Shown here: one piece after another, positions 9,185 through 64,000 of the stretch | Numbering within the stretch: the first letter of the stretch is position 1 | How the letters are laid out: the number at the start of each line of letters is the position of its first letter | NCBI GenBank assembly: GCA_016788665.1 | Contig: JAEUSF010000004.1 | Coordinates: 29,407-93,406 of the forward strand | DNA length: 64,000 bases | Source: Candidatus Doudnabacteria bacterium | GTDB lineage: Bacteria > Patescibacteriota > Doudnabacteria > UBA920 | Reading direction: 5' to 3' | Program-made: the position numbers and the translations under genes | The notes under the pieces: generated by a model | The model's input: the letters and a program-made list of their open reading frames with translations, nothing else | Databases searched by the model: none | What the model was told of the DNA's origin: nothing

Positions 9185-9556
9185 TTATAAGTTTTTTTTT
9201 GCTGAGTTACTTGAGGCAATCATAATAGCCAATATCTCATGAGCTTCTTGCAAAAGGCTTTCCATTTTATTAAACGGTAATAGAGCCAAATCAATTAACA
9301 ACTCCATCCAAAAAATTGATTCATCGCATTCTTCAATCACAATACCAATTTTCGATATAAACTCAAGCTTAGACCGCGCTCTACACGCTGCCCTATAATT
9401 TGCCCCAACAGAGGTTCCGCATCGGAATAATTGATTCCCAATAATACTTCCTTCGTAATTTTTTGGAAGAGCTCGGCAGAGCTTAACTATCCTTATTGTA
9501 AAAGACTTTGTTCGGATTTTTAAGTCTTTGTCGGGCATAACATTTTGCACTCTCAA
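9185..9556 (-). CDS. Four-helix-bundle protein (23S rRNA intervening-sequence protein family)
   Basis: GSIIGNQLFRCGTSVGANYRAA motif characteristic of the TIGR02436/PF05635 family; 123 aa. Confidence 0.65.
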   Translation of the reverse strand: MRVQNVMPDKDLKIRTKSFTIRIVKLCRALPKNYEGSIIGNQLFRCGTSVGANYRAACRARSKLEFISKIGIVIEECDESIFWMELLIDLALLPFNKMESLLQEAHEILAIMIASSNSAKKNL

Positions 9557-37393: not shown

Positions 37394-38449
37394 ATGGAAA
37401 CAAAACCTCAAAAAAATACTACTACCCCTCTTGGCCTGCAAGTTCAGGAATTTTTGGAGTACTGCGAAATCGGCAAAAACCAAAGCCAAAATACTTTGTC
37501 CGCCTACGAGCGTTACTTAAGAAAATTTATACACTTCGGTGAAAGCATTGGTATAACCGTACCGGAAAAAATTGACCTTACCACAATAAAAAAGTACAGG
37601 CTATACTTAAACCGACTCGAAGACGAAAACGGCAAGCAACTTAAACTCATAACCCAAAACTACCACCTTATAGCTTTAAGAACGTTTTTAAAGTTCTTGC
37701 ACAAAAACGACGTTAAGACGCTCTCACCCGAAAAAATAGAACTACCAAAAAACCCCCAACGCCAAGTTGAGTTTTTGGAAAAAGAAGAACTCAAAAGACT
37801 CTTTGAAGCGGTCAAAGAGGAAAAGGAGGAGCTGGTAAGTTTGCGGGACACTGCCATACTTACTACCCTATTTTCAACCGGCTTACGCGTGAGCGAACTG
37901 GCTTCCCTAAAGCGCGAAGGCTTAAACTTGGACAGACGGGAATTTACCGTCAGGGGCAAAGGTGGAAAGCTAAGGCTTGTATTTCTAAGTGACGAAGCAG
38001 CCAACGCTATAAAAAACTACCTAAAAAAGCGAACCGATAATAATAAAGCTCTGTTTATGGGCCATTCAAAAATCGGACACGCTTCTTCTGAAAATAAAGA
38101 AACAAATAAAGAGCAAAAACGAATTGAAAAAGAAATAGAAAGCATGGGACAAGACACCGGTGAAAGAACCGGCAATACTGGCAGAAAAGCATACGGTCTG
38201 ACGGTCAGACAAATTCAAAGAATTATAAAAAAATATTGCATGTTGGCTGGTATTATTAAAAAAGTCACCCCTCACACGTTAAGACATTCATTTGCCACAG
38301 ATCTTTTACAAAATGGTGCCGATATCCGCTCTGTTCAAACCCTGCTAGGCCATTCCAGCATTACCACTACCCAAATTTATACCCATATAACAAACCAAGG
38401 TCTACGAGACATTCATAAGAAATTTCATAATGCCGACGACAAAAAATAG
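37394..38449 (+). CDS. Tyrosine site-specific recombinase (XerC/XerD/XerS-like) with a K/E-rich insertion
   Basis: N-terminal SAM-like core-binding domain. Catalytic region HTLRHSFATDLLQNGADIRSVQTLLGHSSITTTQIYTH with the R...HxxR...Y residues present; 351 aa. Confidence 0.85.
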   Translation: METKPQKNTTTPLGLQVQEFLEYCEIGKNQSQNTLSAYERYLRKFIHFGESIGITVPEKIDLTTIKKYRLYLNRLEDENGKQLKLITQNYHLIALRTFLKFLHKNDVKTLSPEKIELPKNPQRQVEFLEKEELKRLFEAVKEEKEELVSLRDTAILTTLFSTGLRVSELASLKREGLNLDRREFTVRGKGGKLRLVFLSDEAANAIKNYLKKRTDNNKALFMGHSKIGHASSENKETNKEQKRIEKEIESMGQDTGERTGNTGRKAYGLTVRQIQRIIKKYCMLAGIIKKVTPHTLRHSFATDLLQNGADIRSVQTLLGHSSITTTQIYTHITNQGLRDIHKKFHNADDKK

Positions 38450-38980: not shown

Positions 38981-39057
38981 GGTCTCGTAGCTCAGCTGGA
39001 TAGAGCGCAAGCTTGCGGAGCTTGAGGTCGCAGGTTCGACTCCTGCCGAGATCACCA
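38981..39057 (+). tRNA. tRNA-Arg, apparent anticodon GCG
   Basis: Hand-folded: acceptor GGTCTCG/CGAGATC (G2:U71), Arg-like D-arm TAGCTCAGCTGGATAGAGC, anticodon stem CAAGC/GCTTG with loop TTGCGGA, T-arm GCAGG-TTCGACT-CCTGC, CCA encoded. Confidence 0.75.
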
Positions 39058-39122
39058 TAGTTGGACGGATGGCTAGTTTTTCCCCTTCACACATCAGGCA
39101 TATATATAACAAGCCTGTAAAC

Positions 39123-39197
39123 GGCCTCGTAGCTCAATGGATAGAGCAGTGCTCTTCTAAGGCATTGATGTTGGTTCGATTCCAACCGAGGCCACCA
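39123..39197 (+). tRNA. tRNA-Arg (anticodon TCT)
   Basis: Hand-folded: acceptor GGCCTCG/CGAGGCC, D-arm AGCTCAATGGATAGAGC, anticodon loop CTTCTAA, T-arm GTTGG-TTCGATT-CCAAC, CCA encoded. Confidence 0.8.
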
Positions 39198-47590: not shown

Positions 47591-47854
47591 TTAACCGAGC
47601 GGGCTTGTTGCATACACCAATTTTTTTCTAACAACCAGAATTTCAAAGGCAACAAAGGTTAAATATAACAGCCCGCTTACACATGTGTGCAAAATTGAAG
47701 CGTTGGTAAACAACATTAAAGCAATACCGCTTGTCAAAGTAAACGCAAACAAAGCATAGCTTAAATTCAACCCTGGCTTGGACGGCTTAAAAAGCAAAAA
47801 ACTTGTAAAACCCAAACTTACTAAAGCTGAAATAATATGAAAAGCTAATATCAT
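47591..47854 (-). CDS. Hypothetical small membrane protein (87 aa)
   Basis: 3 TM; start overlaps the cyoE stop. Confidence 0.3.
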   Translation of the reverse strand: MILAFHIISALVSLGFTSFLLFKPSKPGLNLSYALFAFTLTSGIALMLFTNASILHTCVSGLLYLTFVAFEILVVRKKLVYATSPLG

Positions 47855-48738
47855 AGCAATAATTTATTTAAATATTTATCTATAGGAATTATAACACACA
47901 ACCCTAAGAGGACAATTAAGGAAAATAAAAATACCTGTTTAGCCCAAACTGTTTCGTTAACGTTTTTATACAAACCTTTTAAAGCAAGCAGAAGCCAAGC
48001 AAAAGAAAGAAAAAGCATAAGTAGCATGTAAAAAATTCCAGTATACCCAAACACATACAAAGACCAAGTGGCAGGTATAAACAAGAAAATATAAGCCAAA
48101 ATTTGAAGCTTAGTTGCCTCACTCCCGCTTTTTACCGGCAACACAGGCAATCCCGCAGACGCATAATCCTTAAGCCTAAAAATTCCAATGGCGTAAAAAT
48201 GAGGCATCTGCCATAAAACTAAAATTGCAAAAATAATTAAAGCGCCCATATCTAAACTTAGAGAGGCAGCCGCATATCCCACAACGGGCGGCACAGCACC
48301 GGCTATGGCGCCCACTAAAGTGGAATGGGAAGAAAGTTTCTTTAAAGGCGTATAAAAAGCCACATAAAAAACAACTCCTACCCAAGCTACCCAAAAGGCC
48401 AAGTGTCCGGCTATAAAATACAAAACCGTACTGCCCAAAAAGAGCAAAGTACTAGCAAACAAAAACGCTTTATACTTTGTTATTTTACCCAAAACCAAGG
48501 CTCGCTTACTCGTTCTTTCCATTTTTGCATCTATTTCTACATCCCAAATATTATTCAGCACACAAGCCCCAGCCATAACAAGCCCTAAACCAACCACGCA
48601 AAACACAAATCTAATAACAGAAAATTCGTTATAGTCAGACCCTAAAAAGAAACCAGCCACGACACTCAAGGAATTTCCATATACTATGCCTGGTTTGGAA
48701 AGATAATAATAGAGCTTAAATTTTTCTTGTAAGTTCAT
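47851..48738 (-). CDS. cyoE: Protoheme IX farnesyltransferase (heme O synthase, UbiA family)
   Basis: NNIWDVEIDAKMERTSKR UbiA/CyoE Asp-rich motif; 295 aa, polytopic; sits at the end of the cyo operon. Confidence 0.8.
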   Translation of the reverse strand: MNLQEKFKLYYYLSKPGIVYGNSLSVVAGFFLGSDYNEFSVIRFVFCVVGLGLVMAGACVLNNIWDVEIDAKMERTSKRALVLGKITKYKAFLFASTLLFLGSTVLYFIAGHLAFWVAWVGVVFYVAFYTPLKKLSSHSTLVGAIAGAVPPVVGYAAASLSLDMGALIIFAILVLWQMPHFYAIGIFRLKDYASAGLPVLPVKSGSEATKLQILAYIFLFIPATWSLYVFGYTGIFYMLLMLFLSFAWLLLALKGLYKNVNETVWAKQVFLFSLIVLLGLCVIIPIDKYLNKLLL

Positions 48739-49082
48739 TTATGTATTGCTTCCTTCTCCATTATTTCGTGATCTGTTTTCATACCCGAAGACATCATGTT
48801 GTAATTTAAATGCCCCATAATCCACAAACACCCCGCCACTACAATAATAACAACTCCCATAGTAGAAATAAAAAACAAATTATTCCACTTTTGCGAAGAT
48901 TCTGCTCTCATATGCAAAAAAAATATAACCTGGGCCATTACCTGCAAAATCGCCAGAACAAATATAAACAACCCTGCACTAGGCATGCCTTTTACCACCC
49001 AAAAAAAAGCAACAAGGGTCAGTAAAAGAGAAAACAAAAACCCTAACAAAATATGTTTAAATGTGGGCATACAAATATACAA
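48735..49082 (-). CDS. cyoD: Cytochrome bo3 quinol oxidase subunit IV
   Basis: 115 aa, 3 TM, in the operon position of cyoD. Confidence 0.55.
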   Translation of the reverse strand: MYICMPTFKHILLGFLFSLLLTLVAFFWVVKGMPSAGLFIFVLAILQVMAQVIFFLHMRAESSQKWNNLFFISTMGVVIIVVAGCLWIMGHLNYNMMSSGMKTDHEIMEKEAIHK

Positions 49083-49635
49083 TGGTAAAAATAAAAATCC
49101 AGACTACGTCTAGAAAATGCCAAAACAAAAACAATCTTCTAAGCTTAGAAGCCACAAAATCAGACAGCCCAAAAGACCTTAGTTGGAAAAACGAAACGGT
49201 AATCCACAAAATTCCAGCAGCTATATGCAGTCCGTGCAAAATAATTAAGGAAAAAAATGCAGACAAAAAAGCATTGGTCTGCCAGGAATATCCTTCCAAA
49301 ACTAGGTTATTCAGCTCCTTATAACCCAGAAACAAAAAAAATGAACCTAAAATTAAAGTCAGCAACAGCCAAAAACTTGTAGCGCGTACATTTCTTTTCT
49401 CTACGTACAAACCAGCTAAACCGCATGTAAAACTGCTCGTAAGTAAAACTATTGTCGAGAACAAAACCAAAGACAGATTAAACAGCTCTTCGCCCCCTGG
49501 ACTATTAAAATTGTTATTTTTCAAAACTATGTAAGAAGCAAACAACGCGGCAAACATTATTAAGTCTGTCATTAAATACAGCCAAAAACCTAAAAAACTG
49601 TTTTCCTGCTGATGCTGGTGAAAAATTTCTGTCAT
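49057..49635 (-). CDS. cyoC: Heme-copper oxidase subunit III
   Basis: 192 aa, 5 TM; conserved subunit III helices (GLHIAAGILW). Confidence 0.75.
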   Translation of the reverse strand: MTEIFHQHQQENSFLGFWLYLMTDLIMFAALFASYIVLKNNNFNSPGGEELFNLSLVLFSTIVLLTSSFTCGLAGLYVEKRNVRATSFWLLLTLILGSFFLFLGYKELNNLVLEGYSWQTNAFLSAFFSLIILHGLHIAAGILWITVSFFQLRSFGLSDFVASKLRRLFLFWHFLDVVWIFIFTIVYLYAHI

Positions 49636-49638
49636 AAT

Positions 49639-51642
49639 TTATTGTTTTAACTGCCAAATTTCCTTTAGTCCCCTGCTTTCCATTTTAGCTACGTCTTCGG
49701 ACTTTATTGTAAACTCGGTGTGATGATCAAACGACCTAAAAATTACACAGGTAACTGCTCCAACAAAACCTACTGCCCCAAGCCAGACAATATGCCAGAC
49801 AAAAGCAAAACCAACTAAAAATAAAAATGCAGAAATATAAATTCCTACCGCTGTGTTTTTAGGCATTACAATATCTTCGTACTGTTTATTAGCCTGCCCA
49901 CTTACTAGCTTATCAACCTGCCCACTAACTTTCATATCCCAAAAAGCATCTCTGTTCTTTATTTCTGGAATAACCGCAAAATTATAAACCGGAGGCGGAG
50001 AAGAAGTTGACCATTCTAAAGTTCGTCCGTCCCACGGATCACCACTCTGGTCTTGGTTCTGTTTTCTTTCTTTTATACTAACTATTATTTGCCATATTTG
50101 AGCACAGACCGCCACACAAATAATAATAAATCCCAATCCTGCCACCATAAACAACCCTTGCCAACCTCTCGACGCATCGTAGTGATCAAGCCTTCTGGTT
50201 ACCCCCATAAGCCCTAAAATATACAAAGGAGTAAAGGAAACCAAAAAACCAGCTATCCAAAGCCAAAATGCTCTCTTACCCCATTTTTCGTTTAGCAAGA
50301 AGCCAGTTACCTTGGGGAACCAATAAGTAATAGCGGCAAATATTCCAAACAAAGCTCCTCCAATAACCATGGTATGGAAATGTGCAACTAAAAATAAGCT
50401 GTTATGAAGCTGAAAGTCCAAGCCTGGGATTCCAAGCATTACTCCGGCCATGCCTCCTAAAGTAAAAGTAAAAACAAAACCAAAAAACCAATGCATAGCA
50501 GAAGTAAAACGCGGATCGCCTTTATAAAGAGTAGCCAGCCAATTAAAAATTTGCACTCCTGTTGGTATGGCAATAAGGCCAGTCATAATACCAAAAAACG
50601 CATTTACGTTGGCCCCAGCTCCCATAGTAAAAAAATGATGCAGCCAAACCAGCATGGAAAGTCCGGAAATAAGCAATGCGTCAGCTACTAAAGAACCATA
50701 TCCAAACAATCTCCTTCGACTGAAGGTTGCCACAATTTCCGAATAAATTCCAAAGGCAGGTAGCATAAGTATATAAACCTCCGGATGCCCCCATGACCAA
50801 ATAAGGTTCACGTAAAGCATGGGGTTACCTCCCAAGTTGGAAGTAAAGAAGTGCATACCAAAAGCTCTGTCTAAAGAAAGCATAAGCAGAGTCATGGTCA
50901 AAATTGGAAAAGTGGAAACCACCAACAATAAACTGCCCAGGCAAGTCCAGACAAACATTGGCATTTTCATTAGAGTCATCCCAGGCGCCCGCATTTTTAA
51001 AATTGTAACCAAAAGATTTACGCCTGAAAGCAAACTGCCAAGCCCCGAAATTTGTAGACTCCAAATCCAATAATCCACCCCAACGCCCGGACTAAACTCA
51101 AGCTCAGACAAAGGCGGCATAGCAAGCCAGCCTGTCGCAGCAAATTCACCACCGAAGAAAAAAAATAAATTTATAAATAACGCACCGGCAGCATATAGCC
51201 AAAAACTTAAAGTGTTTAAAAGTGGAAAAGCTACATCCCGAGCCCCAATCTGCAAAGGCAATATATAATTCATAAGCCCAAACAAAAATCCAGTGGTCAC
51301 AAAGAAAATCATAATAGTGCCGTGCGCGGTAAAAATTTGTTGGAAATGATCCGCGGTCAAATACCCTCCCGAACCACTTGCCAAAGATTGCTGAAGCCAA
51401 ATCATACCAGCATCTAAGCCTCCCCTTACTAACATTAAGGCCGCGACCACAAAATACATAATACCTATTTTTTTAGGGTCAGTAGACGTCAACCATTCCT
51501 GCCATAGCCATTTCCACTTTTTTGTATATGTTAAATATACAAAAATTCCCAGTCCCGCCAAAACCATAGACAAAGCACCGCCAATTGTAAACCATTCGTG
51601 AGGCAACGAAGCCCAAGTTAGTTTTCCAAACCAAAATTTCAT
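49639..51642 (-). CDS. cyoB: Heme-copper oxidase subunit I (quinol oxidase type)
   Basis: [23 protein letters not shown] and the His ligands of heme/CuB; 667 aa. Confidence 0.9.
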   Translation of the reverse strand: [667 protein letters not shown]

Positions 51643-51643
51643 A

Positions 51644-52591
51644 TTAGTAACTAAAAGAAGGATTATTATTATCTAAACTATCCACATTATGACTTGGCAT
51701 ACCAGGCATGTACCCCCCATCAGGCATAAATTTTTCCATTATTTTTTCGTATAAACTGTCCTCAACAAATGAAAAGACTTCTGGTTCATGTTTTTTTTCC
51801 TCCTCGCTCAATCTCTCGTATTCTTTTAGCGTAAGTTTTAAACTTTTGCTTTTAACATTTTTTAACCAATTCCCGTAATCTGTTTCCGAGACTGAATGTA
51901 GAACAAAATTCATGTCAGCAAAACCACGCCCGTTAATTTCTGCTGCAAAACCTTCAAAATCACCTTTCTGATCCGCTTGTAAATGAAGCTTTGTTGTCAT
52001 TCCCGCCATAGAATACATTTGCCCACCCAAACGAGGTATCCAAAAAGAATTCATAGGCGCGTCTGCAGTTAAATTAAATTCAATAGGAGTTTGTTCGGGC
52101 ACCTGCAAAAAATTTATTGTAGCGATGCGCTCGTTTGGATAAATAAACAACCACTTCCAATTTAAAGCCACCACCTGTATGACGATAGGTTCCTTTTTAA
52201 GGCTTAGGGGCTTGTATGGATCTAAATCATGCGTACTTTTCCAATTAATTACAGAAATGGAAAAAATTAAAATAACGGGCACTAACCATACAAAAATCTG
52301 CCACAAACCTTCGTGTGATTTATTTTTTTCGAATAAAGAAATTTTTTCGTGTTTTCTACGTTTTAAAATAAATACGGCAAAACAAAACAGTGGTATTGCC
52401 ACCACAAGCATTAAAAACAACACCAGCTTAAACAACATATACTCTTTTATAGCAACTTCCCCTGCCGGCTGAAGCAAGGCAAAGTTTACCAGCCTAATTT
52501 TAGGCCAGACAAAAAACCACAAAGCCAAGCCCAGCAAAAATACGTCTATTACCACTAAATACAGTATAATAATTTTTTGTTTCTTCGACAT
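51644..52591 (-). CDS. cyoA: Quinol oxidase subunit II
   Basis: Two N-terminal TM helices plus a cupredoxin-fold domain; NSFWIPRLGGQMYSMAGMTTKLHL resembles CyoA with no CuA Cys/His cluster evident. Confidence 0.75.
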   Translation of the reverse strand: MSKKQKIIILYLVVIDVFLLGLALWFFVWPKIRLVNFALLQPAGEVAIKEYMLFKLVLFLMLVVAIPLFCFAVFILKRRKHEKISLFEKNKSHEGLWQIFVWLVPVILIFSISVINWKSTHDLDPYKPLSLKKEPIVIQVVALNWKWLFIYPNERIATINFLQVPEQTPIEFNLTADAPMNSFWIPRLGGQMYSMAGMTTKLHLQADQKGDFEGFAAEINGRGFADMNFVLHSVSETDYGNWLKNVKSKSLKLTLKEYERLSEEEKKHEPEVFSFVEDSLYEKIMEKFMPDGGYMPGMPSHNVDSLDNNNPSFSY

Positions 52592-52781: not shown

Positions 52782-52857
52782 GGCGACTATGGTATAATGG
52801 TTATTACGCTGCTCTGTGGAAGCGGAAATACGGGTTCAATTCCCGTTAGTCGCCCCA
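52782..52857 (+). tRNA. tRNA-His (anticodon GTG) with genomically encoded G-1
   Basis: Hand-folded: G-1 opposite C73, acceptor GCGACTA/TAGTCGC, anticodon loop CTGTGGA, T-arm ACGGG-TTCAATT-CCCGT, CCA encoded. Confidence 0.85.
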
Positions 52858-52959
52858 AAAATAATAAGCCTTACTTGTTAAAGTAGGGCTTATTATTTTG
52901 AGAATTTATTAATTTAGTTGCTATAATATAGTAGAATAGACTTAAATAACATTACAACC

Positions 52960-53343
52960 ATGGACTTAAACGAAGAAGAATTAAAAACCAAACTCACCCC
53001 GGAGCAATATCATATTTTGCGTGAAAAAGGTACCGAGGCACCTTTTTCAAGCCCCCTTTTGGAAGTGCATGACAAAAACATGGACTTCGCATGTGTTGTA
53101 TGTGGCAACATTCTATTTAAAGGCGATGCTAAATTTGAAAGCGGTACAGGCTGGCCATCTTTTGATCAAGCGTTGCCGGGAAGTGTTAAAATAAGCAATG
53201 ATAATTCTCATGGTATGAGCAGAACCGAGGTAACTTGTTCAAAATGCGGTAGCCATTTAGGTCACGTTTTTAACGACGGCCCAGCCACAACCGGCCAACG
53301 CTACTGCATAAATGGAGCTTGTTTATTAACCAAAAAAATTTAA
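52960..53343 (+). CDS. msrB: Peptide-methionine (R)-S-oxide reductase
   Basis: Zinc sites CVVCG..CSKCG, catalytic region HLGHVFNDGP; 127 aa. Confidence 0.9.
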   Translation: MDLNEEELKTKLTPEQYHILREKGTEAPFSSPLLEVHDKNMDFACVVCGNILFKGDAKFESGTGWPSFDQALPGSVKISNDNSHGMSRTEVTCSKCGSHLGHVFNDGPATTGQRYCINGACLLTKKI

Positions 53344-53392
53344 TTGATTAAGCAATACAGAAGCTATCGTTCTTATTTTTTAAGATGCAAAA

Positions 53393-54190
53393 ATGCCAAA
53401 TTCATATCCCCCACCTGTTATAGCCTTAGGGCAACAACCAAACGGCTTTTTTCCAAAAAGATATTTAGTTTCCAAACTAGAAACTGCTCGAAATCTCCAA
53501 AAGGAAATTGGCGGAAAAATAATCTTTTTTTACCACGACTCAGACTCCGACTATAGGGAAACCATAACAGTATTAAAAGACAAAAATACACAAAGTGAAT
53601 TCCGTTTAAACTTCACGCAAGAAAATAAAATCCAAAAGAACTTTTCGCCCCTTTACTTAAAAAGAATCCCAGAAAATTGGAAAGCGGAAATTTTAAAACA
53701 ACTACCTCGCGCACTAGAAGAAAACCAAATTAAATTATTTTCTTCGATTGGAGCCAAAAATACAGCTGATTTTTGTTTAGAAATGTATAAAAAACTCGGG
53801 CTACTCGAAGGCGTAGAAATCATAAGGTCGAGCAATCAAGATTTTCGCCAAAAAGCTCCAAACCTAACAAACGATTACTACGCTGACGTAAAATACGAAA
53901 ACGAAATAGTTAGGGCAAAAGTATTAGCAAAAGACAATAAAAAATTTGGACTACTTCACCACGGAGGGGGTAAAAACACAGAATTTGAAATCTCAGAGGA
54001 GATACCCAAAAATCAAATTACTCCGGGGAGAGACGAAAGATTTGGTTGGATGAACTCTGTTATAAAAAGCACACACTACATTTGCGGAAATTCTGAATTT
54101 GAATATTTAAAAAAAGAAAAATTCCCAGAAGTTAAATTTCTAAAAAGAGATCAGGTAGAAGACGAAAGCCTTGCCTGGTTACCCTCTTAA
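53393..54190 (+). CDS. Hypothetical protein (265 aa), first gene of the bshB/bshA-like cluster
   Basis: No family placed with confidence; it occupies the slot where a third thiol-pathway enzyme would be expected. Confidence 0.45.
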   Translation: MPNSYPPPVIALGQQPNGFFPKRYLVSKLETARNLQKEIGGKIIFFYHDSDSDYRETITVLKDKNTQSEFRLNFTQENKIQKNFSPLYLKRIPENWKAEILKQLPRALEENQIKLFSSIGAKNTADFCLEMYKKLGLLEGVEIIRSSNQDFRQKAPNLTNDYYADVKYENEIVRAKVLAKDNKKFGLLHHGGGKNTEFEISEEIPKNQITPGRDERFGWMNSVIKSTHYICGNSEFEYLKKEKFPEVKFLKRDQVEDESLAWLPS

Positions 54191-54238
54191 ATCTTAAATC
54201 CCCGCTTACCCACAGGCGGGTATAATCTTAAGTAAACT

Positions 54239-54976
54239 ATGAATAAAATTATGTCCCGCGGAGCGGGATCCGGCTTCGCCGGAAAAATACTATGTGTTGG
54301 TGCACACCCCGATGACATTGAATTCGGTATTGGTGCCTTAATAATAAAAGAGACTTCACAAAACACCGATGTAAAATATATTATCGGTTCTTTAGGCGAA
54401 GCTGGTTCAAATGGCACCCCGGAAGAAAGAGAACAGGAAGCAATAGCAGCTGCTTCAATTTGCGGAGTAAATGACGTTGAATTTTTAAACTTGGGGGGCG
54501 ACTGCCATATTGAAGATTCTGCTATAAACGCAATTACCTTAGCTAAAAAAATTCGTGAATTTAAACCCGACATTGTTTTAGCTCCTGAAATGCACTTCAA
54601 CCAGCACCCCGACCATTACAATATTTCAAAACTCACTCATTCTGCTTGCAGACTAGCTCGTTATGGCGGTTTAAGTGAAATAAAAGAACTTCCTGTACAC
54701 AAAATTAATTCACTATTTTTTTACCCTTCTCGCGCTGAATGGGGCAATTCACCCGACGTGTTAATAGACGTTTCGGAGAACTTTGAAATCTGGATAAAGG
54801 CCATGGAAGCGCATACTTCCCAAATGAAAACACGAAACTATATAAATCTGGTATCGACAAAAGCTGCAGCATGGGGAGCTTCAATAGGAGTCAACTATGC
54901 TGTAGGGCTTTGGACAAACGACCCAATCCGCGTAAATACTATTTCAGACTTAAACCTGTCTTCACGAAAGTACTAA
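54239..54976 (+). CDS. PIG-L/LmbE-family N-acetylglucosaminyl deacetylase (BshB/MshB-like)
   Basis: VGAHPDDIEFG and HPDH motifs; 245 aa. Confidence 0.75.
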   Translation: MNKIMSRGAGSGFAGKILCVGAHPDDIEFGIGALIIKETSQNTDVKYIIGSLGEAGSNGTPEEREQEAIAAASICGVNDVEFLNLGGDCHIEDSAINAITLAKKIREFKPDIVLAPEMHFNQHPDHYNISKLTHSACRLARYGGLSEIKELPVHKINSLFFYPSRAEWGNSPDVLIDVSENFEIWIKAMEAHTSQMKTRNYINLVSTKAAAWGASIGVNYAVGLWTNDPIRVNTISDLNLSSRKY

Positions 54977-54977
54977 C

Positions 54978-56108
54978 ATGAATAAAAAGCTTAATATTGG
55001 AATTGTTTGCTATCCTAGCGTAGGCGGCAGCGGAATTGTCGCCACTAACTTAGGCAACTCTTTGGCCGAACTTGGGCACAGCGTACATTTTATTGCTTAC
55101 GAGAAGCCTTTTAGGCTAAACGAAAAACAAAAAAATGTACACTTTCATAAAGTTTATATAAACAAATACGAACTATTCAAATACCCCGATTACACCCTCC
55201 CCCTCTCAGTTGCAATTGGTTCCATACATAAAAAATATAAATTAGATATTTTACATGTCCATTATGCGGTGCCACACGCAACCGCAGCGCTGCTTGCTGA
55301 ACAAATGCTTACACACAGCGGGATAAAACCGCCCCATTTGGTCACCACCCTTCACGGCACAGATATTACTTTGCTTGCAAAAAATAAACATCTCTACGAA
55401 ATTATAAAATACTCTATAGAAAACTCTTGCTGCGTTACAGCAGTTTCGGACTATTTAGCACAGCAAACAAAAAAAATCCTGCAAACAACAAAGCCTATAA
55501 AAGTCATACACAACTTTTATAGCCCGAAGGAAGTTACCAAATCTAAAGAGAAAGTAAGAAAAAGCTTAAATCTCAAGCCGACCGACTTTGTTGCCTTACA
55601 CATGTCTAACCTGCGGGAAGTTAAACGCATACCAGACTTACTAAAAATAGTTTCAAATTTTAAAAGCCAAGAAAACTTTAAACTCCTTATACTTTCTGGC
55701 GGAAGCTTTCAGCAGTACAAGCCGCTTGTCAAAAAACTTGGCATAGAGGAAAAAGTTGTTTTAGTAGAAAATGCTCAAGACATAGAAAATTATATAAACG
55801 CAGCAGACTTTGGCCTTTATACTTCTGGCGAAGAAAGCTTTGGTCTTTCCATTTTAGAAACCATGAGCCTTGGAAAACCGGTTGTAGCCAGCCGTGCCGG
55901 CGGTGTACCGGAAGTCATAACCGACAAACAAAATGGGTTCCTGTGCAAAGTCGGTGACATAAAAAGCTTTGTCAGCAAAATAAAGCTGCTAGAAAAAGAC
56001 CAAGACCTGCTTACATCTTTGGGAGAAAACGCAAGACAAACTGCCGAACAAGAGTTTTCCTCCAAAAAAATTATAAATGAATACCTTAATTACTACAGGC
56101 ACATATAA
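54978..56108 (+). CDS. GT4 glycosyltransferase resembling BshA (N-acetyl-alpha-D-glucosaminyl L-malate synthase)
   Basis: N-terminus LNIGIVCYPSVGGSGIVATNLGNSLAELGH is typical of BshA-like GT4 enzymes; ...HGTDITLL... and the C-terminal E..G.PVVASRAGG donor-binding motifs are present; 376 aa. Confidence 0.75.
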   Translation: MNKKLNIGIVCYPSVGGSGIVATNLGNSLAELGHSVHFIAYEKPFRLNEKQKNVHFHKVYINKYELFKYPDYTLPLSVAIGSIHKKYKLDILHVHYAVPHATAALLAEQMLTHSGIKPPHLVTTLHGTDITLLAKNKHLYEIIKYSIENSCCVTAVSDYLAQQTKKILQTTKPIKVIHNFYSPKEVTKSKEKVRKSLNLKPTDFVALHMSNLREVKRIPDLLKIVSNFKSQENFKLLILSGGSFQQYKPLVKKLGIEEKVVLVENAQDIENYINAADFGLYTSGEESFGLSILETMSLGKPVVASRAGGVPEVITDKQNGFLCKVGDIKSFVSKIKLLEKDQDLLTSLGENARQTAEQEFSSKKIINEYLNYYRHI

Positions 56109-56247
56109 AACAAACAGCTCCCTAAAAACGGGAGTTGTTTTTAGTTTTAATGAACCCTTGTAAATTTCAAGCATTTGGTTTAATATAAACAAACCTTCAG
56201 TCTAGGCAACCCCTCGGCTGAATATCTCTTCTTAGTTTGGAGGAACA

Positions 56248-56991
56248 ATGACAAGAACGCTAACGGCGCTCTTTTTATTTGTATGTCTGGTCGCCCAGGC
56301 ATACGGAGTTACCATGACGGTATCGCCGGGCAACATGAACGGCTGGGCATTTATCACCGAAAGCGGGACACCTACAGGCACCCTAGTTAATGGACCCGGA
56401 TCCCCGCCTGCGGGTACCGGAAGTGCAGAATTCACCGTATTGACTTCCGGCGACCGCTTACTGCTTTCCACGCTCAACCACAACGGGCTCGGGCTGTCCG
56501 AAATTACTACCCTGTCTTATAGCACATACCGTCAAGCCGGCGGAAGCGCCCTTGCGGTATCCCTTCAGTTCGACATCGACACCGATTCGACGGATGCAAA
56601 CACCAGCTGGATGGGACGTCTCGTATACGAGGCATACTATACCCAGACTGTACTGGACAACACCTGGCAGACCTGGAACACGATGACCACCGGGGCCAAC
56701 TGGTGGTTCTCAGGCGCTCCTGGGAACGCAACTTGTTCTATCGGTTCACCCTGCACGTGGGCTCAAGTCCTCACCGCCTTTCCAAATGCCGCCATAAACG
56801 GCAATACGAACCTTAAGGGCGGAGGCGGGTGGAGTGGCTTCATTGGTAATGTGGATAATCTACGCCTCGCTACTCAGAGGTTTGATACAACCTACGACTT
56901 TGAAGCTCAAAATCAGGTACCCGAACCATCGACGCTTCTGCTTATGAGCATAGGGCTCGCAGGTCTCTGGGCAAAACGCAGGCGGTCATAA
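56248..56991 (+). CDS. Secreted PEP-CTERM sorting-signal protein, GC-rich
   Basis: Signal peptide MTRTLTALFLFVCLVAQAYG. C-terminal VPEPSTLLLMSIGLAGLWAKRRRS is PEP + hydrophobic helix + Arg cluster. Roughly 55% GC by eye. Confidence 0.6.
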   Translation: MTRTLTALFLFVCLVAQAYGVTMTVSPGNMNGWAFITESGTPTGTLVNGPGSPPAGTGSAEFTVLTSGDRLLLSTLNHNGLGLSEITTLSYSTYRQAGGSALAVSLQFDIDTDSTDANTSWMGRLVYEAYYTQTVLDNTWQTWNTMTTGANWWFSGAPGNATCSIGSPCTWAQVLTAFPNAAINGNTNLKGGGGWSGFIGNVDNLRLATQRFDTTYDFEAQNQVPEPSTLLLMSIGLAGLWAKRRRS

Positions 56992-57006: not shown

Positions 57007-57043
57007 ACAGTCGACACCTATTTGGTGAAGACTGTCTTTTTTT
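57007..57043 (+). terminator. Weak terminator-like hairpin plus T8 after the PEP-CTERM gene
   Basis: ACAGTC..GACTGT stem with a long loop, followed by CTTTTTTT. Confidence 0.3.
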
Positions 57044-57665
57044 ATTTATATTCAACAATTTTACCAGCCTGAATTTCCACCCTGTCAGCCAGCCTTAAAT
57101 TTTTTACCTGCTCTTTGCTCAATATTTTAAAATGTTTTATTTTGTCCAAAGCTTTAGGGACTGCAAATAAATTTTTTTCAGTCGTTCTCCAGTCAAGAAA
57201 GTTAAAAGTTCTTAAGTCGCATAAACTACTATACTCTCTTAAATTCTTTCTTCCCCGCTCGTCAAAATACTCATGAAAAAAAGAAAGTGCCAGCTCCCTT
57301 ATATTTTTATAAATAGGCTCGCGGTACCTTAAAACCGCGTGGTTGGTTTTACTTAACGCACCCAAGCTGCCATATTTTTCAAATACGCAAACCACATGGT
57401 CAAAATCATCCTTGTTAGCTCTTAAGTCCATAACCAAAGGCTTGTGGCCGCAAAATTCCAAAGCAGCCGCGGCAAACATAGCCCCTTCCATGCAATGGGC
57501 TTTTTTAGTTTGCATAACAAAACGCGGCGACATACAAGTTTCCCCGCCTTTTTCAAAGTTAAACTTTAAAGAATTCAAATAATCTTGAATTTTCTGGGGT
57601 GTACTTAAACGCTTAAATACCTCGAGCTCGCTTTTCGTGTATAAATTCTTAATTCCTAATTCCAT
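57042..57665 (-). CDS. Hypothetical protein with a transglutaminase-like Cys-His-Asp core (putative)
   Basis: AHCMEGAMFAAAALEFCGHKP resembles the G-C-x-x-F-A TGase-core pattern, with His/Asp downstream; 207 aa. Confidence 0.35.
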   Translation of the reverse strand: MELGIKNLYTKSELEVFKRLSTPQKIQDYLNSLKFNFEKGGETCMSPRFVMQTKKAHCMEGAMFAAAALEFCGHKPLVMDLRANKDDFDHVVCVFEKYGSLGALSKTNHAVLRYREPIYKNIRELALSFFHEYFDERGRKNLREYSSLCDLRTFNFLDWRTTEKNLFAVPKALDKIKHFKILSKEQVKNLRLADRVEIQAGKIVEYK

Positions 57666-57675
57666 ATTCCAAGTT

Positions 57676-58620
57676 CTATTTTTTTACCCCATGTCCGCCA
57701 AATTGCTTTCTTAAAAGCGCTACAATTTTGTTTGAAAACTTTTGCTGATTCTTTTCCTCTACCGACTCCTTCCTTACATTCACCGAGTCCTCTATAACCC
57801 TTGCGTCTATACCCAGCTCTTTAGCAGCCTCCACAGTCCATTCGCCCTCCCCGAGCATAGCAATTTGACCCTTGGTACCTTCTATATCTTCCTGCTCAAA
57901 AATATTTCGCGTTAAATCTATTAGCCAACTTCTTATAACCGTACCTTGTTGGTAAATTTTGGTAACTTGAAGCAGATCTAAATCCAATTTTGAAGCTTTC
58001 ATTATACCGTAGCCCTCAGCTATTGCTTCCATCATGCCATACTCAATACCGTTATGGACCATTTTAACAAAATGCCCCGCCCCGTTTTTCCCCACCAATC
58101 CAAAATTTTCACCCGCCGAAAGCGCCTTAAAAACCCCATCAACTTCCTTCCATTTTTCCTTTTCACCCCCCACCATAAGAGCAAAACCATTTTTTTCTCC
58201 CCACACGCCCCCGCTCGTGCCACAATCATAAAAAGCTATACCTTTTTGCTTAAGCTCTTTTGCGGTTTGTATAGAATCTTTATAAAAACTATTTCCCCCG
58301 TCTATAACAACATCGCCCTTTTTTAAAAGCCCGCCCAATAAACTCTTGTTAAAAATAAAGTCTTTTACCAACTCATGAGGCAGCATAATCCAAAAAACTC
58401 TTGGCCCTTCGCCCATATCCCCAACCAAATCGTCTATGCTGGAGTATGCCTTGCTTTTGACTTTCGACTTGTCATTTGTCCCTGAAAAAAAATCTCCAAT
58501 TTCTTTCCGTGGACCTTCGCTCCTGTTCCAGGCTAACACCTCAAAGCCGTTTTTACTAAGGCGCTTTGCTATTTGCATACCCATCTTACCCAAACCAAAC
58601 ACAGCAATTGTCTTTTTCAT
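57676..58620 (-). CDS. gnd: 6-phosphogluconate dehydrogenase-like NAD(P)-dependent dehydrogenase (short, YqeC/Gnd-like)
   Basis: N-terminal Rossmann IAVFGLGKMGMQIAKRL; 6PGDH C-terminal domain; 314 aa. Confidence 0.75.
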   Translation of the reverse strand: MKKTIAVFGLGKMGMQIAKRLSKNGFEVLAWNRSEGPRKEIGDFFSGTNDKSKVKSKAYSSIDDLVGDMGEGPRVFWIMLPHELVKDFIFNKSLLGGLLKKGDVVIDGGNSFYKDSIQTAKELKQKGIAFYDCGTSGGVWGEKNGFALMVGGEKEKWKEVDGVFKALSAGENFGLVGKNGAGHFVKMVHNGIEYGMMEAIAEGYGIMKASKLDLDLLQVTKIYQQGTVIRSWLIDLTRNIFEQEDIEGTKGQIAMLGEGEWTVEAAKELGIDARVIEDSVNVRKESVEEKNQQKFSNKIVALLRKQFGGHGVKK

Positions 58621-58908: not shown

Positions 58909-59466
58909 TTATTTTGGCTTCATTAAACTTACAAATTTCTTTTTAAATTTTTCTAATTTAGGGTTTATAATCACCATGCAATACGGATTATTTCTATTTC
59001 TTTCAAAATAGTTCTTATGATAGCCTTCCGCCTCATAAAACTTCTGAAAAGGTGTAATTTCTGTAACTATAGGCGAATTAAATACCTTGTCGTTCTCCAA
59101 TTCATTCACAAACTCTTCTGTTTCTTTTTTTTGCTCTTCGTTAGTATAAAACACAACACTCCTATATTGCTCACCAACGTCGTTCCCCTGTTTGTTTAAA
59201 GTGGTAGGATCATGCGTAGAAAAGAAAACCTCAAGCAAATCACGATAATTTATTTCTTCTGGGTCAAATTCCACTTTTATTGCCTCAGCGTGTCCCGTGT
59301 TACCTAACGACACCTGTTCATAGGTCGGGTCTTCCACCCTGCCTCCGCTATAACCTGGCATAACCGACTGTACACCCCTTAACCCTAAAAAAATAGCCTC
59401 CGTGCACCAAAAACATCCTCCCCCAAAAACCGCTGACTGCAATAAATTGTTTTTTTCTATATTCAT
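58909..59466 (-). CDS. msrA: Peptide-methionine (S)-S-oxide reductase
   Basis: GGGCFWCTEA active-site motif; 185 aa. Confidence 0.9.
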   Translation of the reverse strand: MNIEKNNLLQSAVFGGGCFWCTEAIFLGLRGVQSVMPGYSGGRVEDPTYEQVSLGNTGHAEAIKVEFDPEEINYRDLLEVFFSTHDPTTLNKQGNDVGEQYRSVVFYTNEEQKKETEEFVNELENDKVFNSPIVTEITPFQKFYEAEGYHKNYFERNRNNPYCMVIINPKLEKFKKKFVSLMKPK

Positions 59467-61762: not shown

Positions 61763-61999
61763 ATACCACATTTTTTTTACAAGACCCAATGACCATGTTG
61801 AAATAAAGTAACCAAATACTGGAACTATCGCCTTTAATACAGCCAAAGACTCATTGATAACTAAAAGCCAACCAAAAGAAATAAAATAAGTTAAAGTAAC
61901 AATAAGCAGCCTTCTCGTCAGGCTTGTCTCCCAAGCCTTGTCCGCTTCCACTCTTGTATTCCGCTCCTTAATTTCTAATATTTCTTTTTCTAAATTCAT
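61742..61999 (-). CDS. Hypothetical 2-TM membrane protein (85 aa)
   Basis: Two hydrophobic helices; no motif. Confidence 0.3.
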   Translation of the reverse strand: MNLEKEILEIKERNTRVEADKAWETSLTRRLLIVTLTYFISFGWLLVINESLAVLKAIVPVFGYFISTWSLGLVKKMWYKKNRSL

Positions 62000-62768
62000 A
62001 TTTTACAAGTTCAATTGCCATAAAAAGTGGAAACTCTTTCCTAGCAATATTTTCTGCTTTGGCCCGAGGGCCCGAGTCACTCTTTTTAAGAGAAACCCAC
62101 TCTTCTAAATTTTCTACTACTAACTGATTTTTGTAAAAGGCCTTAAAGTAAGCCTGGAGAGGCCGGTGAAAAGAATATGTGGTGTTAAAAACCTTTTTAC
62201 CCGGATGCATATCCATTACCTTGCTGCTCTCAGTTAAATAAGAATCAACTCGCCTATACTGCACATTTTGTTTACTGTCGTACTCCCAACTAGACTTTCC
62301 TGGTACCCTGAAAGCGGGATGATTTAGCACAACAACACAGCGTCCGCCGGGTTTTAGAATACGAGATATTTCACTTACAGTATTTTGATAATTTTTTATA
62401 TTTTGTAAAGCCAAAATTATTACCGCAGCATCATATGTGGAAGATTTTATATTTTCCATCTTCTCAGCATTGGCAACTAAATACACACCCTTTGGGTCTT
62501 GCTGTTTCGCAATTTTTATTAGCTCCTGGCCAATATCTACACCCGTAACCTTAGCTCCAATACACCCAAATTCTCTGGCAAAAAACCCGCTGCCGCAGGC
62601 GACGTCTAAAACAAGTTCCCCTGCCTTTAAATTAAGCATGCGGAGCAAGTTAGGTTTTATGACCGTGTTTTGATAACTCGCATCGTCGCTAACAACCTTT
62701 TCGTACCAATTTGCCACATTTCCCCACGATGTATTTTGCTTTTTTAATTTTTGCATGTTTTTGGGCAA
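61968..62768 (-). CDS. Class I SAM-dependent methyltransferase
   Basis: Motif I LVLDVACGSGFFAREF; 266 aa. Confidence 0.7.
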   Translation of the reverse strand: MPKNMQKLKKQNTSWGNVANWYEKVVSDDASYQNTVIKPNLLRMLNLKAGELVLDVACGSGFFAREFGCIGAKVTGVDIGQELIKIAKQQDPKGVYLVANAEKMENIKSSTYDAAVIILALQNIKNYQNTVSEISRILKPGGRCVVVLNHPAFRVPGKSSWEYDSKQNVQYRRVDSYLTESSKVMDMHPGKKVFNTTYSFHRPLQAYFKAFYKNQLVVENLEEWVSLKKSDSGPRAKAENIARKEFPLFMAIELVKYEFRKRNIRN

Positions 62769-62783
62769 TCAAATTTAACCCAT

Positions 62784-64000
62784 TTACTTTGTCCACCAAT
62801 TTTTTAAATCTTTGGCAATCCAAGCTTCCGCCTCTTTCGGACCGTTCGTCCCCTGTTCATAAACATAAGTAGGCGCCTTAGTAAACTGACTACTTTCTGT
62901 TATGGAGTCAACAAACTTCCATGAAGCCTCAATTTCGTCGCTCCTTATGAAGAGACGTTGATCCCCCTCCATAAAATCCAACAAAAGTCTTTCGTATGCA
63001 GATGGAATTTCACCTTTGAAAACTGACTTGTACCCAAACTCCAAATTAGCCTGGTAAAGCTCTATCCCAAATCCAGGTATTTTGTTGTTAATTTGCAAAT
63101 AAACAGATTCGTCAGGCTGAATCTTAAAGGTTAGCACGTTAGAATCACAACCTTTAAAAAGACACCTTACCGGTTCCTTAAAATGAACAGATATTTCAGT
63201 CGTTTTTTTAGAAAGCTTTTTTCCCGACCTTAAATAAAACGGGACTCCGGCCCATCTAGGTAAATTAACAAAGGTTTTAAGAGCAAAATACGTCTCTGTT
63301 GTTGTTTTTCCTCCAACCTCTTTTTCATAACTTTTGTACTGCCCTTTAACTAGCTGATTTTTTATTTTTTCTGCATCAAAGGTATCTAGTGCCTTAAGAA
63401 CCCTTAACTTTTCGTCTCGTATCATTTCCGCAGTCAAATTATAAGGTTCGTCCATTGCTATAAGCGCGAGCATTTGCAAAATGTGGTTTTGTAGAAAATC
63501 TTTAATGGCGCCCGTTTCGTTATAGTAAGCCGTCCTGTCTTCTACGCCACCTTTTTCCAACACGGAAATTTCTACGTGGTCTATATACTTATTATTCCAT
63601 AATGGTTCAAACAAACTATTAGCAAACCTCACAACCATAAGGTTCTGAACGGTCTCTTTACCAGCGTAATGATCTATTCTATAAATTTGGTCTTCTTTAA
63701 AGTACTTAAGCAAAAGCTTGTTCAAACTTTGGGCGGATTTCAAGTTAAAGCCGAACGGTTTTTCCACCAAAACTCTCGCCTGCCGTTTGTGAGCAGTACA
63801 AGATACTAACAAACCTTGGTCTTTAAGGATTTGTGCCAAACTCGAAAACTGCTGGGGTTTTGTTGCAAAATAAAAAAGCCGATTGTAGCACTCGTGCTCT
63901 GCCTGGTCGTGATCAGACAACAATTTAGCCAACGCACCAAAACTTTCCGGCCTGTCAAAGTCGCCTTGGAAGTAAACAAGTTTCTTTAAAAATTCAGACC
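62784..64000 (-). CDS. zwf: Glucose-6-phosphate dehydrogenase, 5'-truncated by the window edge
   Basis: RIDHYAGKE active-site motif. The frame stays open beyond the called TTG at 63932: upstream in-frame codons read ...LVYFQGDFDRPESFGA, G6PD-like. The N-terminal NADP domain is outside the window. Confidence 0.85.
   Translation of the reverse strand, partial: SEFLKKLVYFQGDFDRPESFGALAKLLSDHDQAEHECYNRLFYFATKPQQFSSLAQILKDQGLLVSCTAHKRQARVLVEKPFGFNLKSAQSLNKLLLKYFKEDQIYRIDHYAGKETVQNLMVVRFANSLFEPLWNNKYIDHVEISVLEKGGVEDRTAYYNETGAIKDFLQNHILQMLALIAMDEPYNLTAEMIRDEKLRVLKALDTFDAEKIKNQLVKGQYKSYEKEVGGKTTTETYFALKTFVNLPRWAGVPFYLRSGKKLSKKTTEISVHFKEPVRCLFKGCDSNVLTFKIQPDESVYLQINNKIPGFGIELYQANLEFGYKSVFKGEIPSAYERLLLDFMEGDQRLFIRSDEIEASWKFVDSITESSQFTKAPTYVYEQGTNGPKEAEAWIAKDLKNWWTK

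What the first reader, a model, noticed from the sequence alone, without database searches (positions are those of the whole stretch)
52960..56108. msrB-linked BshA/BshB-type cluster with an unidentified third gene (candidate compact low-molecular-weight-thiol pathway)
Four co-directional, tightly spaced genes: msrB, a 265-aa protein of unknown family, a PIG-L/LmbE deacetylase (AHPDDIEFG) and a GT4 transferase. The GT4 N-terminus (IGIVCYPSVGGSGIVATNLG..LGH) closely resembles BshA, the GlcNAc-malate synthase. BshA and BshB are the first two steps of bacillithiol synthesis; the third enzyme, BshC, is about 540 aa and is not evident in this window. The 265-aa ORF sits exactly where a cysteine-adding or other finishing enzyme would be expected. 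Linkage to msrB, which needs a thiol reductant, supports a redox-thiol theme. The 265-aa protein may be a novel functional replacement for BshC, or the pathway may stop at GlcN-malate or make a different conjugate.
Basis: inference. Interest (0 to 1): 0.62.

Follow-up and report, generated by a model that had tools for sequence, protein, structure and literature searches.

The report
Miniature BshC completes a bacillithiol operon
The "unknown" 265-aa gene is a stripped-down, previously unannotated relative of BshC, the cysteine-adding enzyme of bacillithiol synthesis. It sits in a conserved operon with bshB and bshA in CPR bacteria, Verrucomicrobia and some spirochaete-like genomes, lineages not previously predicted to make a small-molecule thiol.

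Summary
The four co-directional genes are real, at exactly the stated coordinates: msrB, a 265-aa ORF, a BshB1-like PIG-L deacetylase and a bona fide BshA (TIGR03999, 422 bits against a cutoff of 274).

Profile-profile alignment (E 0.002) places it colinearly on BshC residues 81-390, with 21 family-invariant residues shared in register. It lacks BshC's N-terminal ~80 residues and its C-terminal coiled-coil domain.

The family has more than 6,400 sequence clusters, all named "hypothetical". In 60 of 64 informative species-level genomes the gene lies directly upstream of bshB and bshA. These are mostly Patescibacteria, plus cultured Pelagicoccus and other Verrucomicrobiota. No canonical bshC occurs in the window or in 73 related loci.

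Best reading: a minimal BshC that completes bacillithiol (or a close derivative) synthesis. The chemistry is inferred, not shown. The msrB linkage is only locally conserved.

The parts
52898..52927 (+). Sigma-70-like promoter candidate (TTGAGA, 18-nt spacer, TG-TATAAT) between tRNA-His and msrB
   Evidence: 11 of 12 consensus matches. This is a consensus match only, not shown to be functional.
52960..53343 (+). msrB, peptide-methionine (R)-S-oxide reductase
   Evidence: PF01641 E 1.6e-44; TIGR00357 149.7 bits, above the 113 cutoff.
53393..54190 (+). Mini-BshC: a 265-aa BshC-like Rossmann (class I aaRS-like) catalytic core, proposed cysteine-adding enzyme
54239..54976 (+). BshB1-like PIG-L/LmbE N-deacetylase (GlcNAc-malate to GlcN-malate, inferred)
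   Evidence: PF02585 E 5.8e-22. TIGR04001 is the best hit at 139.5 bits, below the 182.5 cutoff. HPDD (H23, D26) and HPDH (H123, H126) motifs are present.
54978..56108 (+). bshA, N-acetyl-alpha-D-glucosaminyl L-malate synthase (GT4)
   Evidence: TIGR03999 equivalog model, 422.5 bits against cutoff 273.7, full length 6-375.
56112..56140 (+). Terminator-like hairpin (11 bp stem) followed by a T-run, immediately after bshA
   Evidence: Pattern match only.

Best explanation
The locus is a compact bacillithiol-type biosynthetic operon, msrB - mini-bshC - bshB - bshA, in a Candidatus Doudnabacteria (CPR/Patescibacteria) genome. BshA condenses UDP-GlcNAc with L-malate, and the BshB1-like deacetylase yields GlcN-malate; both functions are inferred from family membership. 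The 265-aa protein is a minimal form of BshC. It keeps only the Rossmann-type, class I aaRS-like catalytic core, equivalent to B. subtilis BshC residues ~81-390. It lacks the N-terminal ~80 residues and the C-terminal coiled-coil dimerisation domain. The proposed function, which is inferred and not shown, is the last step: attaching cysteine to the amine of GlcN-malate to give bacillithiol or a close derivative. The thiol would serve redox buffering in an oxygen-exposed setting. Nearby genes include the cytochrome bo3 oxidase operon, msrA, msrB, G6PD and 6PGD. The same three-gene module occurs in many Patescibacteria, in Verrucomicrobiota (Pelagicoccus, DG1235, Opitutaceae, Chthoniobacterales) and, in variant form, in Leptospirales-labelled MAGs. 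This would supply the 'missing' BshC in lineages reported to lack a complete pathway.

For: Sequence register: hhalign with enlarged alignments gives E 0.002 over 244 colinear columns, mini 5-257 onto BshC 81-390. Twenty-one positions are >=85% conserved in both families and identical in register, against 0-6 in shifted controls. They include the GQQ/G motif, D51/D53/E56 = D134/D136/E139, W96 = W179, G232/E235/Y238 = G350/E353/Y356 and R252 = R385. A BshC HMM run against 5,778 ORFs returned 45 weak hits, of which 28 are the mini-BshC ORFs.

Context: 60 of 64 informative species-level loci have mini-bshC, bshB and bshA colinear, and 4 more have mini-bshC followed directly by bshA. BshA is above the equivalog cutoff both here (422.5 bits) and in Verrucomicrobium DG1235 (379.9 bits). 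Where the bshB/bshA arrangement differs (L056), a true BshB1 (222.8 bits) is still adjacent. No canonical BshC is found in the window or in 73 loci.

Literature: surveys requiring a full-length BshC found no complete pathway in Verrucomicrobiota or Spirochaetota (PMC12719100 supplement; PMC6282198).
Against: No sequence model recognises the protein as BshC. The first hhalign run gave only E 0.11, and BLASTP gave E 2.4. Homology therefore rests mainly on a predicted structure plus motif register.

The biochemical reaction of canonical BshC itself has never been reconstituted (PMC5790435), so 'cysteine ligase' is an inference two steps removed.

The coiled-coil and N-terminal regions are missing, so the protein may need a partner or may do something different.

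The associated deacetylase scores below the BshB1 cutoff in both the window and DG1235 (139.5 and 120.2 bits against 182.5).

Genome-wide absence of a canonical bshC could not be checked. No bacilliredoxin, YpdA or other BSH-dependent gene was seen in the window, though only 64 kb is visible.
Confidence: 0.7

Rival explanations
1. The protein is a BshC-fold ligase with a different specificity. It would attach another amino acid or acyl group to GlcN-malate or to a related amino-sugar scaffold, so the product is a different conjugate, possibly a different thiol, rather than bacillithiol.
For: Identity to BshC is only ~14-17%. There are many family-specific invariant residues with no BshC counterpart, such as R71-LNF and ENKxQK 77-82. 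The partner deacetylase is a divergent BshB1-like clade that scores below the cutoff. In L056, L061 and L067 a GT2 gene lies nearby and no GT4 bshA was found in the sequence held.
Against: The partner glycosyltransferase scores well above the BshA equivalog cutoff in both CPR and Verrucomicrobia, which argues for the GlcNAc-malate scaffold. Residues shared with BshC fall in the motif positions conserved across all BshC sequences.
Confidence: 0.17
2. The cluster is not a soluble-thiol pathway. It would make, remodel or salvage an amino-sugar glycoconjugate, with the 265-aa protein acting as a nucleotidyltransferase-like or other HUP-class enzyme in that process.
For: The fold belongs to the broad HUP / class I aaRS nucleotidyltransferase class. 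In Verrucomicrobia the module sits directly behind a sodium:solute symporter and an 842-aa PIG-L protein, which could suggest uptake or catabolism. A GT2 polyprenyl-phosphate sugar synthase-like gene neighbours it in L056.
Against: BshC is by far the closest structure, 5 Z-units above the next hit and more than 10 above generic nucleotidyltransferases. BshA meets the equivalog-level model. The 842-aa PIG-L protein resembles mycothiol-conjugate amidase Mca (59.8 bits), which fits thiol-conjugate metabolism as well as it fits catabolism.
Confidence: 0.08
3. The 265-aa protein is a degenerate, non-catalytic remnant of BshC, for example a regulator or scaffold, and a canonical BshC elsewhere in the genome does the chemistry.
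For: It has lost about half of BshC. Genome-wide absence of a canonical bshC was not testable here.
Against: Conservation is extreme: 57 invariant columns among 50 sequences, about 50% identity between CPR and Verrucomicrobia, and more than 6,400 clusters. The motifs retained are the ones invariant in BshC. Very small CPR genomes are unlikely to keep a redundant relic in a tight operon. RefSeq surveys found no complete canonical pathway in Verrucomicrobiota.
Confidence: 0.05

Closest known systems
BshC, bacillithiol biosynthesis cysteine-adding enzyme (B. subtilis YllA, PDB 4WBD; TIGR03998; Pfam PF10079 + PF24850)
   Different: It is half the size (255-265 aa against ~540 aa). It has no N-terminal ~80-aa region and no C-terminal coiled-coil dimerisation domain. 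Identity is only 14-17%, and it is invisible to Pfam, NCBIfam and PDB sequence searches. It is encoded immediately upstream of bshB-bshA as one operon, whereas B. subtilis bshC is unlinked (PMC5790435). Its taxonomic range differs: Patescibacteria, Verrucomicrobiota and Leptospirales-labelled MAGs.
MshC, mycothiol cysteine ligase (a CysRS paralogue, PDB 3C8Z)
   Same: It catalyses the analogous pathway step, adding Cys to a GlcN-glycoside, and both belong to the class I aaRS-type HUP fold class.
Class I lysyl-tRNA synthetase catalytic domain (PDB 1IRX)
   Different: No sequence match to tRNA-synthetase families, including their anticodon-binding domains, was found. The genomic context is thiol biosynthesis, not translation.

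Membership tests
BshC (TIGR03998 / PF10079 + PF24850) | Scores above the curated cutoff of the family's sequence models | tested here: not met
   No BshC model appears for the 265-aa protein even at E<=1 in Pfam or NCBIfam. The DG1235 homologue also has no hit. A profile search against PDB sequences finds nothing.
BshC (TIGR03998 / PF10079 + PF24850) | BshC-type Rossmann catalytic domain fold | tested here: met
BshC (TIGR03998 / PF10079 + PF24850) | Family-invariant motif residues conserved in register | tested here: met
   Twenty-one positions are conserved >=85% in both families and identical in the hhalign register, against 0-6 in shifted controls. Whether these residues line the citrate/glycerol or ADP sites of 4WBD could not be checked.
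BshC (TIGR03998 / PF10079 + PF24850) | C-terminal alpha-helical coiled-coil dimerisation domain (PF24850) | tested here: not met
   The protein ends at the position equivalent to about BshC residue 390. No PF24850 hit. The model has no long C-terminal helices.
BshC (TIGR03998 / PF10079 + PF24850) | Co-occurrence and co-localisation with bshA and bshB | tested here: met
   60 of 64 informative species-level loci are colinear with bshB and bshA, and 4 more with bshA only.
BshC (TIGR03998 / PF10079 + PF24850) | Required for BSH synthesis; the mutant accumulates GlcN-malate | not testable with these tools
   This needs genetics or thiol analysis. Cultured Pelagicoccus species carry the gene.
BshA (TIGR03999) | Score above the equivalog cutoff over the full length | tested here: met
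   422.5 bits against cutoff 273.7, residues 6-375 matching profile positions 2-372 of 375. The DG1235 orthologue scores 379.9 bits.
BshB1 (TIGR04001) | Score above the equivalog cutoff; PIG-L zinc-binding motifs | tested here: inconclusive
   BshB1 is the best hit, but at 139.5 bits it is below the 182.5 cutoff; DG1235 scores 120.2 bits. The PIG-L domain is present (79 bits), and HPDD and HPDH motifs are present. This is a divergent BshB1-like clade.
MsrB (TIGR00357) | Score above the cutoff | tested here: met
   149.7 bits against cutoff 113.05.
MshC / CysRS-type cysteine ligase | CysRS-like catalytic domain recognisable by sequence or as the closest structure | tested here: not met
   No ATP-grasp Pfam hit. 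The best structural matches are BshC and other Rossmann-type HUP-class enzymes, mostly class I aaRS; no ATP-grasp-fold ligase family ranks near the top.

The most novel reading that the evidence does not exclude
A previously unrecognised, very widespread family (more than 6,400 sequence clusters) of 255-265-aa 'mini-BshC' enzymes is the true last enzyme of bacillithiol synthesis in Patescibacteria/CPR, Verrucomicrobiota and some Leptospirales-like bacteria. That would make BSH-type thiols the redox buffer of lineages thought to have none. It would also define the minimal catalytic core of an enzyme whose reaction has resisted reconstitution for over a decade. Because the coiled-coil and N-terminal parts are dispensable, this small monomer-sized protein could be the tractable system in which the unknown activated-cysteine donor is finally identified.
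Probability: 0.55. Interest if true: 0.75.

Novelty: new variant of a known kind. Interest (0 to 1): 0.66.

Why it matters
First, it closes an apparent gap. Genomes with bshA and bshB but no recognisable bshC look like partial pathways. Published surveys that demanded a full-length BshC reported no complete pathway in Verrucomicrobiota or Spirochaetota and did not cover CPR (PMC6282198; PMC12719100). If the mini-BshC works, bacillithiol-type thiols extend to these lineages, including ultra-small CPR bacteria that also carry a cytochrome bo3 oxidase and Msr enzymes.

Second, the reaction catalysed by canonical BshC is still unknown (PMC5790435). A natural half-size version shows which part is indispensable and offers a simpler protein for biochemistry.

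Third, it is immediately testable, because cultured Pelagicoccus species carry the operon.

Fourth, in practical terms, a new HMM for this family would correct thousands of 'hypothetical protein' annotations.

Tried and rejected
**Sequence-level searches on the 265-aa protein.** None was significant:
- Pfam and NCBIfam.
- phmmer and profile hmmsearch against PDB sequences.
- BLASTP against B. subtilis BshC gave E 2.4, although it aligned the GQQ...DxD region.
- PADLOC.
- The first hhalign, with narrow alignments, gave E 0.11. After adding 69 locus-derived family members and about 75 metagenomic BshC sequences it improved to E 0.002.

**Exhaustive profile search.** A search of 1.84 billion representatives found only 238 hits, mostly fragments, and no ~540-aa protein among the top 150. 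It gave no sequence bridge to canonical BshC.

**Unavailable resources.**
- The afdb50 fold library was not available.
- The BshC structure paper (PMC4303302) is not held, so ligand-contact residues of 4WBD could not be mapped.
A profile search against PDB sequences identified it instead, as CPR-C4. The single-sequence AF2 job for it was not collected, because that hit made it unnecessary.

**Hypotheses considered and rejected.**
- An ATP-grasp or MshC-type identity for the 265-aa protein.
- The idea that it is a fragment of a split bshC: its length is constant across thousands of members, and bshB follows tightly.
- The nearby SAM methyltransferase (61968-62768) as an NmbA orthologue: its match to CtNmbA 9RI2 is only E 6e-5, and other methyltransferases score far better.

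**Not testable.** Genome-wide absence of a canonical bshC could not be tested.
Full report
**1. Observation**

The four ORFs are exactly as described. All lie on the + strand, and the gaps between them are 49, 48 and 1 nt.

| Gene | Coordinates | Length |
|---|---|---|
| msrB | 52960-53343 | 127 aa |
| unknown ORF | 53393-54190 | 265 aa |
| PIG-L deacetylase | 54239-54976 | 245 aa |
| GT4 transferase | 54978-56108 | 376 aa |

- Pfam and NCBIfam confirm MsrB (TIGR00357, 149.7 bits).
- The GT4 is a bona fide BshA: TIGR03999 scores 422.5 bits against a cutoff of 273.7, over the full length.
- The deacetylase's best family is BshB1 (TIGR04001), but at 139.5 bits it falls below the 182.5 cutoff. 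It carries the HPDD and HPDH metal-site motifs.
- The 265-aa ORF matches nothing in Pfam or NCBIfam.
- A strong sigma-70-like site (52898-52927) lies between a tRNA-His gene (52783-52857) and msrB. A hairpin followed by a T-run (56112-56140) follows bshA. These are consistent with one transcription unit, but they are pattern matches only.

**2. Source organism**

The 265-aa protein is 100% identical to an NCBI 'hypothetical protein' of a Candidatus Doudnabacteria MAG, a member of the CPR/Patescibacteria. The rest of the window is typical small-genome housekeeping, with one oxygen-related neighbourhood:
- cyoABCD and cyoE at 47851-52591 on the minus strand. This operon has already been described in Doudnabacteria (PMC8407418).
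- msrA, a 6PGD-like gene and G6PD.

**3. What the 265-aa protein is**

By eye, three motifs resembled BshC motifs: GQQPNGFFPK...K, FFYHDSDSDYRE and HYICGNSEFEY. I confirmed that the B. subtilis BshC sequence I used is identical to PDB 4WBD chain A.

Sequence methods do not detect the relationship:
- BLASTP gives E 2.4, although it aligns exactly the GQQ...DxD region.
- A family profile against PDB sequences finds nothing.
- An exhaustive profile search of 1.84 billion representatives finds only a tight family of 238 representatives, with no ~540-aa protein among the best 150.

Structure does detect it:
- An AlphaFold2 model built from a 50-sequence alignment is very confident, with pLDDT 94.1 and pTM 0.90.
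- Its top Foldseek hit in the PDB is 4WBD (BshC), with E 8.9e-11 and probability 1.0.

With enlarged alignments (119 family members and about 100 BshC sequences), hhalign gives E 0.002 over 244 colinear columns, placing mini residues 5-257 on BshC 81-390.
- In that register, 21 positions are >=85% conserved in both families and identical. Register-shifted controls give 0-6.
- A BshC HMM searched against all 5,778 six-frame ORFs of the window and 73 related loci finds no canonical BshC. Of its 45 weak hits, 28 are the mini ORFs. These ORFs are homologous to one another, so this counts as one replicated observation rather than 28 independent ones.

Conclusion: the protein is a remote homologue of the BshC catalytic domain. 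It lacks BshC's first ~80 residues and its C-terminal coiled-coil domain (PF24850).

**4. Conservation and context**

The family is large: at least 3,234 clusters match the window protein and 6,437 match the DG1235 homologue. Every source name is 'hypothetical' or 'uncharacterized'.

A scan of one genome per species returned 69 loci.
- Most are Patescibacteria, labelled Doudnabacteria, Nomurabacteria, Paceibacterota or 'Saccharibacteria'.
- Seven are Verrucomicrobiota: Pelagicoccus mobilis KCTC 13126, Pelagicoccus sp., strain DG1235, Opitutaceae MAGs and one uncultured Verrucomicrobiae MAG.
- Two are Leptospirales MAGs, and one is labelled 'Wirthbacteria'.

Synteny across these loci:

| Arrangement | Loci |
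|---|---|
| mini gene, bshB-like and bshA-like on the same strand | 60 of 64 informative loci (about 50 with under 150 nt between the mini gene and bshB) |
| mini gene followed directly by bshA | 4 |

- In L056 the gene is convergent with a true BshB1 (222.8 bits) and a GT2 gene.
- In DG1235 the BshA orthologue is above the equivalog cutoff (379.9 bits). The module there is preceded by an 842-aa PIG-L protein with Mca-like similarity and by a sodium:solute symporter.
- msrB is immediately upstream only in the window and in L005. It lies 4-5 kb away in about nine more loci and was not found in the others. The msrB link is therefore a local feature, not a defining one.

**5. Mechanism**

Shown:
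- the gene order and operon-like spacing;
- BshA family membership;
- a BshB1-like deacetylase;
- a BshC-type fold and shared motifs for the 265-aa protein;
- tight co-conservation of the three genes.

Inferred:
- BshA makes GlcNAc-malate, and the deacetylase makes GlcN-malate;
- the mini-BshC adds cysteine, giving bacillithiol or a close derivative;
- the thiol serves redox buffering in an oxygen-exposed CPR cell.

The reaction of canonical BshC has never been reconstituted, and its activated cysteine donor is unknown (PMC5790435). The chemistry of the mini form is therefore inferred by homology and context only.

**6. Comparison with what is known**

- Functionally and structurally the closest relative is BshC.
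- The protein fails two membership criteria of the curated family: its sequence-model score and the coiled-coil domain.
- It meets the criteria for fold, motifs and gene association.
- It is therefore best described as a new compact variant of BshC, not as a standard member and not as an unrelated analogue.
- It is not MshC-like and not an ATP-grasp enzyme.

On prior knowledge:
- Hiras et al. [quoted passage not shown]
- The 2025 RefSeq survey required similar length and more than 80% coverage to BshC. It lists Verrucomicrobiota and Spirochaetota among phyla with no complete BSH pathway (PMC12719100 supplement).
- Full-text searches combining bacillithiol with CPR, Patescibacteria, Doudnabacteria or Pelagicoccus found no description of such a gene.

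**7. Caveats**

- Homology rests on a predicted structure.
- Genome-wide absence of canonical bshC was not testable here.
- The deacetylase clade is divergent.
- No BSH-dependent enzymes were seen in the 64 kb visible.

**8. Verdict**

This is a new variant of a known kind, of moderately high interest, and directly testable in cultured Pelagicoccus.

Noticed in passing
window 56248-56991 (+): A PEP-CTERM-sorted protein gene (PF07589, TIGR02595) has 54.7% GC in a 39.5% GC genome. It is wedged between bshA and the CPR-C4 gene and is absent from all 73 related loci. It looks like a recent foreign insertion or an assembly chimera, and it is odd for a CPR genome.
   Followed up: partly
window 57042-57665 (-): The 207-aa neighbour is an orthologue of CPR-C4, the vasohibin-like cysteine protease with solved structures 7OB6 and 7PJO (profile E 1.1e-75; PMC9108980). 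Together with a 6PGD-like gene, it lies a short distance downstream of bshA on the opposite strand in about half of the related loci, the Doudnabacteria-type ones. The CPR-C4 paper did not report this context.
   Followed up: partly
window 47851-52591 (-): A cytochrome bo3 ubiquinol oxidase operon (cyoABCD) plus heme O synthase (UbiA family) lies divergent from msrB. Such operons are already reported in soil Doudnabacteria (PMC8407418).
   Followed up: partly
window 57676-58620 (-), 58909-59466 (-), 62784-63932 (-): A 6PGD-like gene, msrA and G6PD cluster near the operon. This forms an NADPH-supply and oxidative-damage-repair neighbourhood.
   Followed up: no
window 61968-62768 (-): A 266-aa SAM-dependent methyltransferase has the same length as the bacillithiol N-methyltransferase NmbA, but matches CtNmbA (9RI2) only weakly (E 6e-5). 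Other methyltransferases score much better, for example 3BKW at 2.4e-13. It is probably not NmbA.
   Followed up: partly
L063 3614-7992 (Verrucomicrobiae bacterium DG1235); a similar gene arrangement (842/815/852-aa ORF followed by a 568/598-aa ORF) precedes the module in L064, L060 and L059: In Verrucomicrobia the mini-bshC/bshB/bshA module is preceded, on the same strand, by an 842-aa PIG-L protein with mycothiol-conjugate-amidase (Mca)-like similarity and by a sodium:solute symporter whose stop overlaps the mini-bshC start. This may be a thiol-conjugate amidase and transporter extension of the operon.
   Followed up: partly
L056 7986-10157; L061 7989-9333; L067: A variant context occurs in 'Wirthbacteria' and in Leptospirales MAGs. 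In L056 the mini-BshC gene is convergent with a true BshB1 (222.8 bits) followed by a GT2 polyprenyl-phosphate sugar synthase-like gene; in L061 it is convergent with a GT2 gene; in L067 with a PIG-L-like gene. No GT4 bshA was found in these loci.
   Followed up: partly
window 53393-54190, residues 11 and 17: The window's protein has Ala11 and Asn17, where the family consensus has Cys: 'PIICFGQQPCGFFPK' in the consensus against 'PVIALGQQPNGFFPK' here. Cys11 is conserved in 110 of the 120 closest homologues, so these cysteines are not essential to the family's function.
   Followed up: no
window 54200-54220: A GC-rich hairpin (CCCGC...GCGGG) followed by TATAAT lies in the 48-nt gap between mini-bshC and bshB. 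It could be an internal stem-loop or a promoter.
   Followed up: no
window 37394-38449 (+) and 38981-39197 (+): A tyrosine recombinase (phage integrase family) gene lies next to two tRNA-Arg genes. This may be the edge of an integrated element.
   Followed up: no
window 9185-9556 (-): An ORF matching the '23S rRNA-intervening sequence protein' family (PF05635, E 1.2e-15) sits next to parB.
   Followed up: no
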